Origin: a virus
Lineage: Duplodnaviria > Heunggongvirae > Uroviricota > Caudoviricetes
Strand: one strand, 5' to 3'
IMG/VR virus record: IMGVR_UViG_2684622669_000003
Location: 1-6,089 of that record
Length of the DNA stretch: 6,089 nt
The stretch's first letter is position 1. Each line of letters starts with the position of its first letter. Positions 1,414-5,605 of this stretch are shown here, in pieces. Position numbers and translations under genes: made by a program. Under the pieces are notes generated by a model. That model made no database searches. It saw only the letters and a list, made by a program, of their open reading frames with translations, and was not told where the DNA came from.

Positions 1414-1428
1414 TTACCGTTGAGGTAA
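1414..1428. promoter_or_regulatory. operator palindrome TTACC-GTTGA-GGTAA (leftward operator site 1)
   Basis: Perfect inverted repeat TTACC-N5-GGTAA overlapping the -10 and start region of the putative leftward promoter; member of a six-copy motif family confined to intergenic DNA. Confidence 0.55.
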
Positions 1429-2517: not shown

Positions 2518-2539
2518 TATCCAGCCACAACCCTCTGTA

Positions 2540-2561
2540 GACCGCCACTCGGCGGTCTTTT
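2540..2561 (+). terminator. rho-independent terminator after the cro-like gene (tR1-like position)
   Basis: Hairpin GACCGCC-ACTC-GGCGGTC followed by TTTT, 23 bp after the stop at 2517. A weaker AT-rich hairpin (AACCA-AATC-TGGTT) and a T9 run follow at 2593-2619. Confidence 0.6.
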
Positions 2562-2668: not shown

Positions 2669-2869
2669 ATGGAAATCATTACACGTATTGATGCCGCAAA
2701 GCGCGGACTTAAACGCTACTACACCGGAAAACCATGTAAGCACGGACATGACAGTGAACGCTGGGTTTACAACGGACACTGTGTTGAGTGCACCATGGAA
2801 TCAAACCGTCGCATCAGGGCAGAGATTAAGCAGATCATGATTAATTCCTCCCCACAACATTCAAGCTGA
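2669..2869 (+). CDS. small zinc-finger-like protein, 66 aa (CxHxH ... CxxC), in the cII position
   Basis: Track ORF 2618..2869 begins at a TTG immediately after a T9 run with no RBS; I prefer the ATG at 2669, with GGGG 6 nt upstream. Motif KPCKHGHDSERWVYNGHCVEC suggests metal binding. No family confidently recognised. Confidence 0.5.
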   Translation: MEIITRIDAAKRGLKRYYTGKPCKHGHDSERWVYNGHCVECTMESNRRIRAEIKQIMINSSPQHSS

Positions 2870-2884
2870 TAGCGGAGATTAATC

Positions 2885-3736
2885 ATGAGCAGACATGCAA
2901 CAGATTGGGCCTGGGAGACAGATCCGGGTAGCTCGTCATTAAAGCTCATACTGCTCTCGATGGCTGACAGAGCCGATGAATATAACCTCTGCTACCCCAG
3001 CATAGAACGCCTCGTTAAAGACACTTGCCTGAATAAAAAAACCGTACAGGCCGGGCTTATATCGCTCATGAAAATGGGGCTTATTTCAGATACCGGAGAG
3101 AGAAAGGGAGCGACGAAAAGAGTGCGGGTTTTCTCTCTTAATATAACCAAAAACGGGAACATTAAAGGCAACCGGGAAGGGAGCAATGAACCCGAAAACG
3201 GTAATGTTCCCGAAAACGGTAATGTTCCCGAAAACGGTAATGTTCCCGAAAACGGGAATATACCCAAAAACGGGATGTTGAATGATCCCAAAAACGGGAT
3301 GTTGAATGATCCCAAAAACGGGATCCAGAACCAGTCATATAACCAGTCATTTAACCAAGAGAGGGAGAGCAGGACAAAAGCCGGGGATTCTGTGCCTCAT
3401 GACCCCGGCGCAAACAACGCCGTGATGAATAACTTTGTTCCTCCTGGTGGGCCAGGGCAATTAGGCAAATTTGTCATGCATGAACAATGGCAGCCATCAG
3501 ATGACTTTCTTCGGAAAAGCTCATTGCAGGGGATCTACCTGGACAGTCTGCCAACGGCACAGGAACTTGCAGAGTTCAGAATTTACTGGATGGCTGAGGG
3601 TAAGGCATACCATCAGGCACAGTGGGAGCAGAAGCTGGCAAGGCGGCTGCAGATTAGCAGACAGAAGCAATCAACATTACCTGATAACAACGTTCCGCAC
3701 TGGAACAGCCCTGAAGCATGGGAGGATTTCTTGTGA
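2885..3736 (+). CDS. phage replication initiation protein (functional analogue of lambda O): N-terminal HTH DNA-binding domain, repeat-encoded linker, C-terminal domain resembling DnaT-like replication proteins
   Basis: Complete ORF in the track. GGAG RBS 7 nt upstream of the ATG. N-terminal region (LKLILLSMADRADEYNLCYPSIERLVKDTCLNKKTVQAGLISLMKMGLIS) fits the winged-HTH pattern of phage replication initiators. Linker is encoded by tandem DNA repeats (NGNVPE x4, NGMLNDPK x2). Stop overlaps the start of the P-like gene. Domain naming is from recollection. Confidence 0.7.
   Translation: MSRHATDWAWETDPGSSSLKLILLSMADRADEYNLCYPSIERLVKDTCLNKKTVQAGLISLMKMGLISDTGERKGATKRVRVFSLNITKNGNIKGNREGSNEPENGNVPENGNVPENGNVPENGNIPKNGMLNDPKNGMLNDPKNGIQNQSYNQSFNQERESRTKAGDSVPHDPGANNAVMNNFVPPGGPGQLGKFVMHEQWQPSDDFLRKSSLQGIYLDSLPTAQELAEFRIYWMAEGKAYHQAQWEQKLARRLQISRQKQSTLPDNNVPHWNSPEAWEDFL
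3191..3324. repeat. iteron-like direct repeat array: 7 units with core CCC(G/A)AAAACGG, spaced 18,18,18,18,24,24 bp; followed by a 12-bp direct repeat pair CCAGTCAT(A/T)TAA at 3331-3354
   Basis: Seen directly: cccgaaaacggtaatgtt x3, cccgaaaacgggaatata, cccaaaaacgggatgttgaatgat x2, cccaaaaacgggat. Located in the linker-coding part of the initiator gene, the arrangement known for ori-lambda inside gene O. Confidence 0.65.
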
Positions 3737-4518
3737 ACAACGTTTTTACCGCGATACAAAACCGTGACGGAGAAGCCCTTTCTCGCATGTCAGGTTATGA
3801 GCATCAGTACACTAACAATGACAACGTGGTGAACATGTCAGCAGAGAGGCTTGTTGATGCCCTTTTCAAACAGTTGAAACAACTGTTTCCGGCGGCAGTG
3901 GTAACCAACCTGAAGACGCCAGAGCAGGAAGTTGCTGCAAAACAGCAGTGGATTGCTGCGTTTGCCGAAGGGGGGATCCGAACCCGTGAACAGGTTTCTG
4001 CTGGTATGCGCCACGCCCGCGCCAGTGAATCTCCGTTCTGGCCGTCGCCAGGGCAATTCATCAAGTGGTGTAAAGACAGCAAGATGGTTCTTGGCGTCAC
4101 CATTGACGATGTGATGGCGGAGTTTCACCGGTACAGCAAGGAAAAAAGTTTATATCCTGGTGGTCCCGAAAGATTCCCGTGGCGGCATCCGGTTATGTAC
4201 TGGGTCGTATGTGATACCCGCCGTGCAATGTATCAGCGCCAGCTTAGCGAGATTGAGGTTGAGAAACACGCGCGCAGGCTGCTCGATGATTGGGCGAAAA
4301 AGGTGGCTTCCGGACAGCAGATACCCGAGCCGGTGATCAGCATACAGGCAAAGCCAGAGCCCATGAGTACACCTCCGGACACAGGGAGAGACGTTTACCA
4401 TCCATCAGGGCGAAGTTTCGGGTGCATGCCTAACGCCGCCACCCTTGGGGGAATAACACCAGCGCAGTGGCTGATGGAGGAATACAGGCGGGGAAAGGCG
4501 GCAGGATTTATCAAGTAA
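3733..4518 (+). CDS. P: lambda P-like replication protein (DnaB helicase loader)
   Basis: Translation aligns by eye with recalled lambda P (FPA...EQV.AGMR.AR....PF.PSPGQF..WC, YP....PW....YW, IPEPV). Start chosen at GTG 3733 (GGAGG 7 nt upstream, GTGA overlap with the initiator stop, as in lambda O/P); an alternative ATG at 3718 gives the track ORF 3718..4518. Confidence 0.8.
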   Translation: MNNVFTAIQNRDGEALSRMSGYEHQYTNNDNVVNMSAERLVDALFKQLKQLFPAAVVTNLKTPEQEVAAKQQWIAAFAEGGIRTREQVSAGMRHARASESPFWPSPGQFIKWCKDSKMVLGVTIDDVMAEFHRYSKEKSLYPGGPERFPWRHPVMYWVVCDTRRAMYQRQLSEIEVEKHARRLLDDWAKKVASGQQIPEPVISIQAKPEPMSTPPDTGRDVYHPSGRSFGCMPNAATLGGITPAQWLMEEYRRGKAAGFIK

Positions 4519-4523
4519 TACCA

Positions 4524-4543
4524 GCGCGATAGCGCATTTTTTT
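4524..4543 (+). terminator. possible weak terminator after the P-like gene (short GC stem GCGC-GATA-GCGC followed by T7)
   Basis: Only a 4-5 bp stem, but all GC and followed by seven T residues; 6 bp after the P-like stop. Confidence 0.25.
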
Positions 4544-4555
4544 ACGCCTCGATAA

Positions 4556-4570
4556 TTACCTAATGGGTAA
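4556..4570. promoter_or_regulatory. operator palindrome TTACC-TAATG-GGTAA (third locus, site 1)
   Basis: Perfect TTACC-N5-GGTAA with A/T flanks, upstream of the -35 of the promoter preceding the ORF at 4636. Confidence 0.5.
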
Positions 4571-4589
4571 CAAAATATTCTAAATTCTA

Positions 4590-4618
4590 TTGATTTCATG
4601 TCTTATGTGGTTTTTAAT
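4590..4618 (+). promoter_or_regulatory. putative sigma70 promoter: -35 TTGATT, 17-bp spacer, -10 TTTAAT, driving the post-replication gene block
   Basis: TTGATT at 4590-4595 and TTTAAT at 4613-4618, about 18 bp upstream of the ATG at 4636; same -35 hexamer as the pR-like promoter. Confidence 0.45.
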
Positions 4619-4632
4619 TACCTAGGAGGTAA
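4618..4632. promoter_or_regulatory. operator palindrome TTACC-TAGGA-GGTAA (third locus, site 2) overlapping the -10, transcription start and RBS
   Basis: Perfect TTACC-N5-GGTAA; the GGAGG RBS of the ORF at 4636 lies inside the palindrome. Confidence 0.5.
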
Positions 4633-4635
4633 ATC

Positions 4636-4980: not shown

Positions 4981-5041
4981 ATCGACGATCTTTTTAGTTA
5001 TCAATGTAATCAATAAGTTATGTGGATAAGCGAGGGTAAAG

Positions 5042-5605
5042 ATGGAAAGTAATATCAAAGGGTTAGTTGCCGCCGGGCATGAGATAGCTTCGGAACTGAA
5101 AGCAGAATGTTGTGCCGTTGATATGCGCAGTGTGGCAAAGCTGATCAGCGATTTGGCAACGCAACTGGAATTGCAACTGGTGCGTGCTAATGCGCTGGCC
5201 GAAGACCAGCAGAAAGCGATTGAGTCAATTAAGCAGGCTGATGCAGCTGTTAAGTTGGCACACGAGAAGTTTTCGGCGCTGGCGGCGGAGAATGCGGGGC
5301 TGAAGTCTGGCGCTATGGACGAAATCAAGGTTATCAACCGTGGAGGGCAGGCATATTGCGTAAAAGATGGAGTGCAAGTTAATCCCATGTATGCAAGAGG
5401 GTGGAATGACTATCGCGCAAAGTTTCTGCAATCAGACACCCCAGCTACCGATGCTTTTCTGGCTGAAATTCGTGCAGAAGCACGCAACGAGGGGATTAAC
5501 TATACCGCCAGCCGTCTTGCTGCTGCTTTCAACCACGGATTTATCAATAAGTCTTTGCGTGAAGTTTTCGACGTTACACGCATGATTCTGTCAGCGAAAG
5601 AATAG
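5042..5605 (+). CDS. hypothetical phage protein, 187 aa, alanine/glutamate-rich and predicted helical N-terminal half; ends at a TAG followed by 33 in-frame sense codons
   Basis: Complete ORF in the track; GAGGG RBS 5 nt upstream of the ATG. No family recognised. Confidence 0.65.
   Translation: MESNIKGLVAAGHEIASELKAECCAVDMRSVAKLISDLATQLELQLVRANALAEDQQKAIESIKQADAAVKLAHEKFSALAAENAGLKSGAMDEIKVINRGGQAYCVKDGVQVNPMYARGWNDYRAKFLQSDTPATDAFLAEIRAEARNEGINYTASRLAAAFNHGFINKSLREVFDVTRMILSAKE

What the first reader, a model, noticed from the sequence alone, without database searches (positions are those of the whole stretch)
3191..3354. Putative replication origin: iteron array embedded in the initiator gene
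Seven direct repeats with an AAAACGG core at 18- and 24-bp spacing, followed by a 12-bp repeat pair, lie in the linker-coding region of the initiator gene, immediately upstream of the P-like helicase-loader gene. This mirrors ori-lambda inside gene O. The repeats also impose hexa- and octapeptide repeats on the protein linker.
Basis: partly seen in the sequence, partly recalled or inferred. Interest (0 to 1): 0.55.

Follow-up and report, generated by a model that had tools for sequence, protein, structure and literature searches.

The report
Phage replication origin inside initiator gene
The repeats are real and are very probably the binding sites of a prophage replication origin that lies inside the gene for its own initiator protein, as in phage lambda; this is an expected arrangement, shown here for a large initiator family for which I found no published origin.

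Summary
Seven exact copies of CCVRAAAACGGK sit at 3191-3322, spaced 18,18,18,18,24,24 bp. An eighth, one-mismatch copy lies at 3146, and a 12-bp pair follows at 3329-3352. Chance expects 0.34 copies.

The array lies in the part of a 283-aa initiator gene that encodes a predicted disordered linker. The protein has an N-terminal winged helix (Pfam HTH_36) and a C-terminal domain like that of DnaT. A lambda-P-type helicase loader gene follows, with its start overlapping the initiator's stop.

The repeats are selected as DNA, not as peptide. In relatives from many bacterial groups the same 11-mer occurs in all three reading frames. Where it encodes P-E/K-N-G, the synonymous sites are frozen (Pro = CCC in 53 of 53, background 17%). 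The layout is conserved: units spaced 17-18 bp, then units spaced 24 bp, then GAACCnnTCA 12/13-mers. The repeats travel with the N-terminal domain whatever the C-terminal domain is. One relative joins this N-terminal domain and its repeats to a lambda-O C-terminal domain. The proven lambda iterons occupy the same position in gene O and are also read in three frames.

I rate it a new member of a known kind, of modest interest.

The parts
2885..3736 (+). Replication initiator gene (283 aa). It encodes an N-terminal winged helix (aa 1-88, nt 2885-3148), a disordered linker (aa 89-190, nt 3149-3454) and a DnaT-like three-helix C-terminal domain (aa 191-265, nt 3455-3679).
   Evidence: Pfam HTH_36 at aa 18-67 (E 2e-10) and DnaT domain PF17948 at aa 196-264 (E 1e-15). 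phrog_1032 'replication initiation protein', E 4e-111. AlphaFold2 pLDDT is above 93, about 45-50, and above 92 for the three segments. The C-terminal domain matches solved DnaT C-terminal domains 4ou6 and 6aep (E 1e-20).
3146..3157 (+). Outlying iteron copy ACCAAAAACGGG, 45 bp upstream of the array. Its 3' flank CGGGAACATTA is the reverse complement of the left flank of the 18-bp units.
   Evidence: (inverted repeats I3-I5). An upstream outlier is also present in relatives, often in another reading frame: TQKR in L001 and L003, DPKTE in L002.
3191..3274 (+). Distal sub-array: five iteron cores, CCCGAAAACGG[T/G] at 3191, 3209, 3227 and 3245 and CCCAAAAACGGG at 3263, spaced 18 bp apart. Each unit is an imperfect dyad, TTCCCG-AAAA-CGGTAA.
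   Evidence: Spacing of 17-18 bp at the 5' side of the array recurs in distant relatives.
3263..3322 (+). Proximal sub-array: three cores CCCAAAAACGGG at 3263, 3287 and 3311, spaced 24 bp apart. Dyad: at 3287 and 3311 ATCCC-AAAAAC-GGGAT, with the same outer arms as the lambda iterons; at 3263 the left arm is TACCC (4 of 5).
   Evidence: Spacing of 24 bp next to the 12/13-mers is the commonest spacing in relatives (41 of 115 intervals between neighbouring copies).
3329..3364 (+). 12-mer repeats AACCAGTCATAT and AACCAGTCATTT, with a partial third copy AACCAAGAGAGG. Candidate unwinding or single-strand-binding element.
   Evidence: Two to three copies of GAACCnnTCA at a period of 11-14 bp follow the last iteron in most relatives, and a 13-bp period puts the copies in two reading frames. 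Duplex stability is locally low but not extreme (z 1.5).
3374..3384 (+). Degenerate iteron-like site ACAAAAGCCGG to the right of the 12-mers.
   Evidence: In 18 of 73 distinct close relatives this site reads ACAAAAAACGG.
3733..4518 (+). Lambda-P-type helicase loader gene. Its GTG start overlaps the initiator's TGA stop (GTGA at 3733-3736).
   Evidence: PF06992, E 1e-56. phrog_109 'P-like helicase loader', E 8e-93. The same overlap is annotated in phage Tyrion.

Best explanation
The repeat array is the initiator-binding (iteron) part of the prophage's origin of replication, embedded in the linker-coding part of the initiator gene.

Inferred mechanism:
1. Rightward early transcription makes the initiator.
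2. Its N-terminal winged helix binds the 11-12-bp cores CCCRAAAACGG(G), probably as dimers because each unit is an imperfect dyad around an A-tract.
3. Occupation of the 18-bp-spaced and 24-bp-spaced sites builds an O-some-like nucleoprotein complex.
4. DNA next to the 24-bp units opens; the GAACCAGTCAT 12-mers are the candidate site.
5. The DnaT-like C-terminal domain holds the opened strand, docks the P-like loader, or both.
6. The loader delivers host DnaB.

Shown here: the repeats exist, they are under DNA-level selection, they track the N-terminal domain, and they have the lambda-type position and gene context.

Inferred only: binding, opening, loader recruitment and origin activity.
For: Repeats and their significance.

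Initiator and P-loader identity.

Disordered linker.

DNA-level selection:
- The core occurs at 6.5 per kb in the linker zone of 36 loci, against 0.066 per kb elsewhere on both strands. Frames 0/1/2 are used 73/12/9 times, and 12 of 28 loci use two or more frames.
- In 72 independent cluster representatives, the peptides of the other two frames ([TSPA]QKR, PKT[ED]) occur 31 and 15 times, against about 0.6 in shuffles.
- In P[EK]NG motifs defined from the peptide alone, Pro = CCC in 53/53 (background 0.17, p 1e-41), Lys = AAA in 35/35, Glu = GAA in 18/18 and Asn = AAC in 51/53.
- GAACCAGTCAT repeats with a 13-bp period are read in two frames.

Conserved layout: units spaced 17-18 bp, then units spaced 24 bp, then 12/13-mers.

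Link to the N-terminal domain:
- Relatives that share only the C-terminal domain (Tyrion, SPN1S) lack the repeats.
- The N-terminal domain plus repeats combines with a DnaT-like, a lambda-O-like or other C-terminal domains.
- Relatives with a changed wing and recognition-helix start carry different dyad iterons in the same layout.

Lambda benchmark: same position in the gene, iterons read in three frames, same ATCCC/GGGAT arms.

Literature:
- A lambdoid origin is iterons plus an AT-rich tract in the middle of O, and iteron number varies between phages and lengthens O (PMC7466680).
- Domesticated DopC proteins with the same HTH_36 + DnaT_C architecture, which are not origins, have no iterons (PMC5509034).
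Against: - No experiment on this module was found. No binding or replication data exist for this initiator.
- The region after the iterons is not clearly AT-rich. Its GC content equals the gene average (0.48). The 40-bp stability z is 1.5, against 3.2 for lambda's tract, and the least stable stretch in the gene (3128-3167) lies on the other side of the array.
- Dyad symmetry is imperfect.
- The instances counted in the comparative tests are related by descent and by tandem duplication, so the p-values overstate independence.
- Sequence similarity of the N-terminal domain to lambda O is weak: BLASTP finds none, and hhalign gives E 0.0014 at 17% probability.
Confidence: 0.8

Rival explanations
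1. The repeats are initiator-binding sites, but their main role is autoregulation or copy control: a roadblock inside the initiator's own gene, or pairing between copies. Replication would start elsewhere, for example in the very AT-rich intergenic region 4519-4635 downstream of P.
For: Region 4552-4591 is the least stable 40-mer of the window (z 3.3). It holds two TTACC-N5-GGTAA palindromes. The 12-mer region is only mildly unstable.
Against: The palindromes at 4556 and 4618 match those that flank the repressor gene (1414, 1476, 2188, 2236), so they look like operators of a promoter. In lambda and the Stx phages the origin is the iteron array itself together with its flank (PMC7466680). The conserved 12/13-mers next to the array are not explained by a roadblock role. 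Domesticated DopC lost its iterons together with its origin function.
Confidence: 0.1
2. The repeats are a protein-level feature: a repetitive flexible linker of PENGNV and PKNGMLND units that expands and contracts by slippage and has no role as DNA.
For: Copy number varies among close relatives: one to four 18-bp steps and one to five 24-bp steps. The segment is predicted to be disordered.
Against: The same DNA motif is kept in all three reading frames, where it encodes unrelated peptides. Synonymous sites are frozen across distant taxa. Spacings of 17, 23 and 25 bp, and 13-bp repeats, are kept although they shift the reading frame. DopC proteins do without the repeats.
Confidence: 0.03
3. 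The repeats are a recombination joint: sequence shared between mosaic phages that promotes exchange of N-terminal and C-terminal modules. No protein would bind them.
For: The boundary between modules lies just after the repeats. In GF-2 the similarity to lambda O starts directly after the 12-mers. The N-terminal domain is found with several different C-terminal domains.
Against: This does not explain the dyad symmetry, the conserved 17-18 and 24-bp spacing, or why the arm sequence changes with the wing and recognition helix. Recombination at this site is better seen as a by-product of an origin shared between phages.
Confidence: 0.03

Closest known systems
ori-lambda inside gene O of phage lambda, and the six-iteron origins of Stx phages P27 and 933W
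   Same: - The iteron array lies in the part of the initiator gene that encodes the linker between the DNA-binding and loader-binding domains.
- Each iteron is a dyad around an AAAAC centre; the last two 24-bp units have the ATCCC...GGGAT arms.
- The iterons are read in several frames in relatives, as in lambda.
- Copy number varies and changes the length of the linker.
- A P-type loader gene follows, and transcription is rightward from a Cro/CI-controlled region.
   Different: - The initiator is Pfam HTH_36, not Phage_rep_O. It has no BLASTP similarity to O and only shares PHROG 'O-like' families with it.
- The spacer between the arms is 6 nt instead of 9.
- There are two spacing classes (18 and 24 bp), against 20-24 bp in lambda.
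- The downstream element is a set of GAACCnnTCA 12/13-mers of average GC content, not a strongly AT-rich tract.
- The C-terminal domain is DnaT-like, not the lambda-O C-terminal domain.
DopC/DopE of Cellvibrionales and Oceanospirillales (Brezellec et al. 2017, PMC5509034)
   Same: The two-gene architecture is identical: an HTH_36 N-terminal domain plus a DnaT C-terminal motif, followed by a lambda-P-like protein.
   Different: DopC and DopE are resident chromosomal genes. The authors found no iterons in them, and the locus is not an origin. The copy in this window is in a prophage and carries a full iteron array. It looks like the mobile ancestor type of that pair.
E. coli DnaT (primosomal protein I), after which these phage proteins are often annotated
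   Same: The C-terminal three-helix domain is about 50% identical to the DnaT C-terminal domain (PDB 4ou6, 6aep, 9zbt). That domain forms filaments on single-stranded DNA in the preprimosome (PMC13377028).
   Different: The N-terminal domain is a sequence-specific winged helix, not the DnaT N-terminal domain. The context is an origin plus a P loader, not PriA/PriB-dependent restart. 'Primosomal protein' is a misleading name for this protein.
Iteron plasmid origins whose unwinding element contains 13-mers bound on one strand by Rep (RK2 TrfA and others; PMC4081077)
   Same: Direct repeats bound by a winged-helix initiator lie next to short 12-13-bp repeats where opening occurs (for the reference). 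The analogy is inferred.
   Different: The plasmid iterons lie outside the rep gene. Their unwinding elements are AT-rich and are accompanied by DnaA boxes. Here no DnaA box lies near the array; the only one is at 5021-5029.
Phage P22 origin inside gene 18
   Same: The origin is annotated inside the initiator gene. Its iterons have a TAAAAC centre, and GAATCAGTCA follows the last iteron directly, as the GAACCAGTCA element does here.
   Different: gp18 is of the lambda-O type at its N-terminus. It is followed by a DnaB-type helicase (gene 12), not by P.

Membership tests
Lambdoid (ori-lambda-type) origin embedded in the initiator gene | Several direct repeats (iterons) lie inside the initiator gene, in the part that encodes the inter-domain linker | tested here: met
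   Eight copies at 3146-3322, within aa 88-146 of a linker with pLDDT about 45-50. The position matches lambda: nt 307-438 of 852 here, nt 349-433 of 900 in lambda.
Lambdoid (ori-lambda-type) origin embedded in the initiator gene | Each iteron has internal dyad symmetry around an A-rich centre | tested here: met
   TTCCCG-AAAA-CGGTAA has 5 of 6 arm positions complementary; ATCCC-AAAAAC-GGGAT (units at 3287 and 3311) has 5 of 5. Divergent relatives keep a dyad with other arms, for example TCGGA-AAAA-TCCGA and GTGCCA-AAAG-TGGCAC. The symmetry is imperfect.
Lambdoid (ori-lambda-type) origin embedded in the initiator gene | An AT-rich unwinding tract directly flanks the iterons | tested here: inconclusive
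   The 12-mer region 3322-3361 has a 40-bp stability z of 1.5 and GC 0.48, equal to the gene average. Lambda's tract has z 3.2. In GF-2 the equivalent region is the least stable in its gene (z 2.25).
Lambdoid (ori-lambda-type) origin embedded in the initiator gene | The repeats are conserved as DNA, independently of the reading frame | tested here: met
   Frames 0/1/2 are used 73/12/9 times. Codons are frozen. Peptides of the other two frames are enriched about 30-50-fold over shuffles. Lambda's own iterons are in frames 0, 2, 2 and 1.
Lambdoid (ori-lambda-type) origin embedded in the initiator gene | The initiator gene is followed by a gene that delivers the host helicase (a P-type loader) or by a helicase gene | tested here: met
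   Gene 3733-4518 matches PF06992 (E 1e-56) and phrog_109, and its start overlaps the initiator's stop.
Lambdoid (ori-lambda-type) origin embedded in the initiator gene | The N-terminal domain of the initiator binds the iterons specifically | not testable with these tools
   Support is indirect only. The repeats follow the N-terminal domain and not the C-terminal domain, and they change when the wing and recognition helix change.
Lambdoid (ori-lambda-type) origin embedded in the initiator gene | The fragment supports replication that depends on the initiator and the loader | not testable with these tools
   No experimental report was found. One weak hint exists: an 8.46-kb circular plasmid record whose listed genes include only a related initiator-plus-P module as replication functions.
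Lambda O protein family (Pfam Phage_rep_O, PF04492) | The N-terminal domain matches the family model | tested here: not met
   Pfam reports HTH_36 and DnaT only. BLASTP against lambda O finds nothing. hhalign aligns the helix and wing with E 0.0014 but only 17% probability. Both proteins hit phrog_678, 345 and 391 'O-like'. The relationship is remote homology at best.
DnaT (primosomal protein I) | DnaT C-terminal single-strand-binding domain | tested here: met
   PF17948, E 1e-15. PDB 4ou6, 6aep and 9zbt, E about 1e-20. Foldseek TM-score 0.85-0.93 normalised to the target.
DnaT (primosomal protein I) | DnaT N-terminal oligomerisation domain and a PriA/PriB restart context | tested here: not met
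   The match to full-length DnaT (9zbt_D, 179 aa) covers only its residues 85-170. The N-terminus is an HTH_36 winged helix. The context is a prophage early operon.
Iteron plasmid origin (Rep with two winged helices) | Iterons outside the rep gene, with DnaA boxes and AT-rich 13-mers nearby | tested here: not met
   The iterons are inside the gene. The only DnaA box is at 5021-5029 and is not significant. The 12-mers are not AT-rich.

The most novel reading that the evidence does not exclude
The array may be one example of a conserved three-part origin cassette: iterons spaced 17-18 bp, then iterons spaced 24 bp, then GAAYCnnTCA 12/13-mers. The cassette travels with the HTH_36 winged helix through a very large phage initiator family (3,667 clusters at 50% identity match some part of the protein).

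The 12/13-mers stay the same even where the iteron arms change. This suggests that something other than the specificity-determining surface recognises them.

In the version with a DnaT-like C-terminal domain, that domain would form a filament on one strand of the opened 12-mers, as DnaT does in the preprimosome. The protein would then be a DnaA-like initiator in two parts: one domain binding the double-stranded origin, the other forming a single-strand filament that marks where P and DnaB are loaded. It would also be the phage ancestor of the bacterial DopC/DopE helicase-loading pair.
Probability: 0.25. Interest if true: 0.6.

Novelty: new member of a known kind. Interest (0 to 1): 0.35.

Why it matters
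- **Prevalence.** This replication module is in 424 of 5,426 complete E. coli genomes, in phiV10-like phages that are used as O157 reporter phages, and in relatives across Gammaproteobacteria and beyond.
- **Practical use.** Knowing where the origin lies and what its motif is helps in three ways: avoiding damage to the origin when these phages are engineered or recoded, predicting replication incompatibility between prophages, and correcting the misleading name 'primosomal protein/DnaT'.
- **A method.** Motif kept in three frames, frozen synonymous codons and conserved non-triplet spacing together give a cheap computational way to recognise origins hidden in coding sequence.
- **A link to bacterial genes.** The result supplies the mobile, origin-bearing counterpart of the domesticated DopC/DopE pair.
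- **Limits.** It does not change the picture of how lambdoid phages start replication.

Tried and rejected
- **Literature.** Searches for phiV10 origin, iterons with O, DnaT or primosomal protein, and the motif itself in both orientations found nothing on this origin. All motif hits were unrelated PCR primers.
- **Known RNA families.** Rfam at gathering thresholds found none in the window. The single-strand fold of 3130-3400 is only mildly better than shuffles (z -2.3), which the dyads explain.
- **Genome scan.** A 9-sequence alignment worked.
- **Viral scan.** It returned only near-identical N-terminal domains. It was useful for copy-number variation but not for diversity.
- **A possible counter-example.** Protein P0181 has an HTH_36 + DnaT architecture but no peptide repeats. 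I hoped it was a DopC-type negative control. It turned out to be a phage gene that still carries three dyad sites GTGNCAAATTGNCAC followed by AAACCA 12-mers.
- **DopC check.** I could not fetch a dopC locus to verify the published absence of iterons myself.
- **P22.** gp18 might have belonged to this family, which would have made the origin already known. It is of the lambda-O type instead.
- **Operator pattern.** TTACC-N6-GGTAA matched only the iterons themselves. The real operator-like sites have a 5-nt spacer.
- **Fold search.** For the N-terminal domain it gave only generic winged-helix proteins.
Full report
**1. What the window is**

The 6,089 bases are the early region of a lambdoid prophage of Escherichia coli. 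From left to right the genes are:
- a PD-(D/E)XK-like protein, on the minus strand (122-943);
- a CI-type repressor, on the minus strand (1548-2132);
- a small cro-position gene (2287-2517), followed by a terminator-like hairpin (2539-2558);
- a 66-aa gene with no family match (2669-2869);
- the gene that holds the finding (2885-3736);
- a lambda-P-type gene (3733-4518; PF06992, E 1e-56);
- a DUF1064 gene, then further genes.

The 852-bp gene is 94-96% identical to the replication gene of phage phiV10 and its relatives. It is present at 90% identity or more in 424 of 5,426 complete E. coli genomes.

**2.

Tandem Repeats Finder reports three arrays:
- an 18-bp array (3191-3273, 4.6 copies);
- a 24-bp array (3263-3324, 2.6 copies, 100% matches);
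- a 12-bp array (3329-3357, 2.4 copies).

The shared core CCVRAAAACGGK matches exactly seven times, at 3191, 3209, 3227, 3245, 3263, 3287 and 3311. It matches once more with one mismatch at 3146. With one mismatch allowed, chance expects 0.34 matches, and none of 200 shuffles reaches 8. The copies are in frame and give PENGNV and PKNGMLND peptide repeats.

The array is mid-gene, about 380 bp before the P-like gene, not directly before it.

**3. The protein around the repeats**

The 283-aa product has three parts.
- The N-terminal part is a winged helix (Pfam HTH_36; residues 1-88 modelled with pLDDT above 93).
- The C-terminal part is a three-helix domain (residues 191-265, pLDDT above 92). 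It is about 50% identical to the single-strand-binding C-terminal domain of E. coli DnaT (PDB 4ou6, 6aep, 9zbt).
- Residues 90-190 between them are predicted to be disordered (pLDDT 44-52). The repeats encode residues 103-156 of that segment.

PHROGs places the protein in phrog_1032 'replication initiation protein'. It also gives weaker N-terminal hits to three 'replication initiation O-like' families that lambda O hits too. BLASTP finds no similarity to lambda O. A profile comparison aligns the recognition helix and wing with E 0.0014 but only 17% probability. I therefore treat the N-terminal domain as at most a remote relative of the lambda-O N-terminal domain.

**4. The repeats are selected as DNA, not as peptide**

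This is the central result. It rests on relatives from phage records, from one genome per species and from 50%-identity cluster representatives.

(a) Identical DNA in distant relatives.
- Vibrio phage H20 has an N-terminal domain 58% identical over residues 1-85 (41% over the first 181 aligned residues) and an unrelated C-terminal part. It carries 4.6 copies of a 24-bp unit with the identical 12-mer CCCGAAAACGGT, followed by 2.5 copies of a 13-bp unit AGAACCAGTCATT.
- A 13-bp period puts successive copies in different reading frames (QNQSL, then EPVI). That makes sense only for a DNA element.

(b) The core is used in all three frames.
- In 36 loci the core occurs 94 times in the linker zone (6.5 per kb), against 15 times in the rest of the loci on both strands (0.066 per kb).
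- Reading frames 0, 1 and 2 are used 73, 12 and 9 times. Twelve of the 28 loci that have the core use at least two frames.
- Examples: ACC CAA AAA CGG (TQKR) in PPompW and GF-2, and GAC CCA AAA ACG GAA (DPKTE) in H20.

(c) An independent protein set agrees. In 72 cluster representatives, the peptides expected from the two other frames ([TSPA]QKR and PKT[ED]) occur 31 and 15 times in the linker. Composition-matched shuffles give about 0.6, and the rest of the proteins gives 1 and 0.

(d) Synonymous sites are frozen. I selected motifs from the peptide alone (P-[EK]-N-G; 53 distinct instances).
- Proline is CCC in 53 of 53 (17% in the same genes outside the linker, p 1e-41).
- Lysine is AAA in 35 of 35.
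- Glutamate is GAA in 18 of 18.
- Asparagine is AAC in 51 of 53 (background 47%).

The instances are related by descent and by duplication, so these p-values overstate independence. Even so, the loci come from different orders of bacteria, with N-terminal identities of 40-87%, where silent sites should long since be randomised.

**5. A conserved layout**

Spacings between successive cores fall into two classes: 16-18 bp (31 cases) and 23-25 bp (48 cases). In most loci where both classes occur, the 17-18-bp steps come first and the 24-bp steps come last.

Spacings of 17, 23 and 25 bp shift the reading frame and are kept all the same.

Directly after the last core comes (C)AGAACCAGTCA. Two or three copies of GAACCnnTCA follow at a period of 11-14 bp (13 bp in 11 loci, 12 bp in 9).

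Among 73 distinct close relatives, copy number ranges from one to four 18-bp steps and from one to five 24-bp steps. The commonest pattern is 45,18,18,24,24. The pair of AACCAGTCAT copies is almost constant. With 45,18,18,18,18,24,24, this window has more 18-bp steps than any relative examined.

**6. The repeats belong to the N-terminal domain**

- Phages Tyrion and SPN1S share only the DnaT-like C-terminal domain, joined to other N-terminal domains. They lack the repeats.
- The N-terminal domain with its repeats occurs with several partners: a DnaT-like C-terminal domain (this window, PPompW, Superficieibacter, Marinobacterium), a lambda-O C-terminal domain (GF-2), or other C-terminal parts (most loci).
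- In GF-2 the C-terminal 144 residues are 62% identical to lambda O. The similarity begins right after the 12-mers, and a lambda-type P follows. So nature has exchanged lambda's 'N-terminal domain plus iterons plus AT-rich tract' for this 'N-terminal domain plus iterons plus 12-mers'. That is the strongest single argument that the two cassettes do the same job.
- Relatives that lack the conserved wing motif DTGERKG-T and the N/D-x-K-T start of the recognition helix carry different dyad repeats with the same layout. Examples are TCGGA-AAAA-TCCGA (Sphingobium), GTGCCA-AAAG-TGGCAC (Zoogloeaceae), GTGCC-CAAAGA-GGCAC spaced 18,18,18 then 24,23 (Desulfovibrio), and GTCGG-TAAAT-GCCGAC spaced 18,18,24,22,24 (Methylotenera). 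Each array is again followed by GAAYC 12-mers.
- A phage initiator with no visible peptide repeat still has three sites GTGNCAAATTGNCAC about 21-23 bp apart, followed by AAACCA 12-mers.

**7. Comparison with the proven case**

In the lambda record the four annotated iterons lie at nt 349-433 of the 900-nt O gene. They are read in frames 0, 2, 2 and 1, and have the form ATCCCTC-AAAAC-GAGGGA. Here the array lies at nt 307-438 of 852. The last two 24-bp units read ATCCC-AAAAAC-GGGAT: the same outer arms, but a spacer three bases shorter.

Published work defines lambdoid origins as iterons plus an AT-rich tract in the middle of O. It shows that Stx phages have six iterons instead of four, with a correspondingly longer O protein. 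It also shows that the iterons next to the AT-rich tract are the essential ones (PMC7466680).

The one feature not clearly matched here is the AT-rich tract.
- Lambda's tract is the least stable 40-mer of its gene (z 3.2).
- Here the 12-mer region reaches z 1.5, with GC equal to the gene average.
- The least stable stretch of the gene (3128-3167, z 2.3) is on the other side of the array.
- In GF-2 the equivalent 12-mer region is the least stable in its gene.

**8. Published negative control**

Brezellec et al. (PMC5509034) described the DopC/DopE pair, which has exactly this two-gene architecture: HTH_36 plus a DnaT C-terminal motif, followed by a P-like protein. The pair is domesticated in Cellvibrionales and Oceanospirillales. 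The authors found no iterons in dopC, and GC skew places the chromosomal origin elsewhere. So the protein can do without the repeats when the locus is not an origin. I could not fetch a dopC locus to check this myself.

**9. Most likely mechanism**

The steps below are inferred. Only the anatomy and its conservation are shown.
1. The initiator's winged helix binds the cores, probably two subunits per dyad.
2. Occupation of the closely spaced distal sites (18 bp) and the proximal sites (24 bp) bends and wraps the DNA, helped by the A-tracts.
3. The DNA opens beside the proximal sites, in or next to the GAACCAGTCAT repeats.
4. The DnaT-like domain may hold the opened strand. In DnaT this domain forms a filament on single-stranded DNA and marks the helicase-loading site (PMC13377028; PMC4132743). 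The domain may also dock the P-like loader, the role the C-terminal domain of O plays in lambda (the lambda O-P contact is stated from general knowledge, not from a tool result).
5. P delivers host DnaB.

The operon layout allows transcription from the Cro/CI-controlled promoter region at 2188-2261 to pass through the origin, as in lambda.

**10. Rivals**

- A purely protein-level repeat is excluded by the frame and codon tests.
- A recombination joint without binding does not explain the dyads, the spacing or the co-variation.
- The serious rival is that the sites are bound but serve autoregulation, while replication starts in the very AT-rich spacer after P (4519-4635, z 3.3). However, the two palindromes in that spacer are the same TTACC-N5-GGTAA motif that flanks the repressor gene, so it looks like an operator-controlled promoter. 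I give this rival 0.1.

**11. Novelty and verdict**

I found no paper that describes this origin or its motif. The kind of element is textbook, and annotation pipelines already call the two genes 'replication initiation protein' and 'P-like helicase loader'.

I rate it a new member of a known kind, with confidence 0.8 that it is the iteron part of the origin, and interest 0.35.

The more novel reading is a conserved three-part cassette whose 12/13-mers are read by something other than the specificity surface, possibly as single strands by the DnaT-like domain. The evidence does not exclude it. I put it at 0.25.

Noticed in passing
window 1414-1428, 1476-1490, 2188-2202, 2236-2250, 4556-4570, 4618-4632: Six TTACC-N5-GGTAA palindromes occur in three pairs (0.07 expected by chance). 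Two pairs flank the CI-type repressor gene, like OL and OR operators. The third pair lies in the very AT-rich spacer after the P-like gene, in front of the DUF1064 gene, which suggests a third repressor-controlled promoter downstream of the replication genes.
   Followed up: partly
window 3733-3736: The GTG start of the P-like gene overlaps the TGA stop of the initiator gene (GTGA), which suggests translational coupling. The same overlap is annotated in phage Tyrion.
   Followed up: no
L003 (Edwardsiella phage GF-2) 1501-2343: A natural chimera. The N-terminal domain and iterons are of this family (the core has changed to the near-perfect palindrome AATCCCAAAATTGGGATT, peptide PKIG). They are joined to a C-terminal domain 62% identical to lambda O, and a lambda-type P follows.
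   Followed up: yes
L127 = NZ_CP148379.1 (8,461-bp circular E. coli plasmid record): The record lists a DicA-like repressor, Cro, YdaT, a related DnaT-like initiator and a short P gene, plus hokD, rem and a few others. No plasmid replicon type is given. It may be a natural lambda-dv-like replicon driven by this type of module, or an excised or misassembled prophage fragment.
   Followed up: partly
L128 (phage P22) 1841-1985: The origin annotated inside P22 gene 18 has TCGGTAAAAC-type iterons. Right after the last one comes GAATCAGTCA, the same junction motif that follows the iterons in this window and its relatives, although gp18 belongs to the lambda-O family.
   Followed up: partly
window 3374-3384: A decayed iteron-like site ACAAAAGCCGG lies to the right of the 12-mers. 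In 18 of 73 distinct close relatives it reads ACAAAAAACGG, so in those phages the 12-mers are flanked by iterons on both sides.
   Followed up: partly
window 5021-5029 (minus strand): A perfect DnaA box TTATCCACA lies in the AT-rich spacer before ORF 5042-5605. With one mismatch allowed, 1.2 are expected by chance, so it may mean nothing.
   Followed up: no
window 2669-2869: A 66-aa ORF sits in the position of lambda cII. It has a Cys/His-rich stretch (KPCKHGHDSERWVYNGHCVEC) and matches no Pfam family. Genes of similar size, annotated as hypothetical, sit in the same place in Tyrion and SPN1S.
   Followed up: no
window 2539-2558: A strong terminator-like hairpin (8 pairs, 6 of them G-C, followed by a T run) lies between the cro-position gene and the replication genes, in the position of lambda tR1.
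   Followed up: no
L104, L106, L118 (Granulosicoccaceae, Desulfovibrio, Halieaceae genomes): In these distant hosts the same CCCRAAAACGG core alternates between reading frames within one gene. L104 uses frames 2,0,2,0 with spacing 25,23,25. L118 uses frames 2,0,0,1,0,2 with spacing 16,18,16,23,23. These are the clearest single-locus illustrations of DNA-level constraint.
   Followed up: yes
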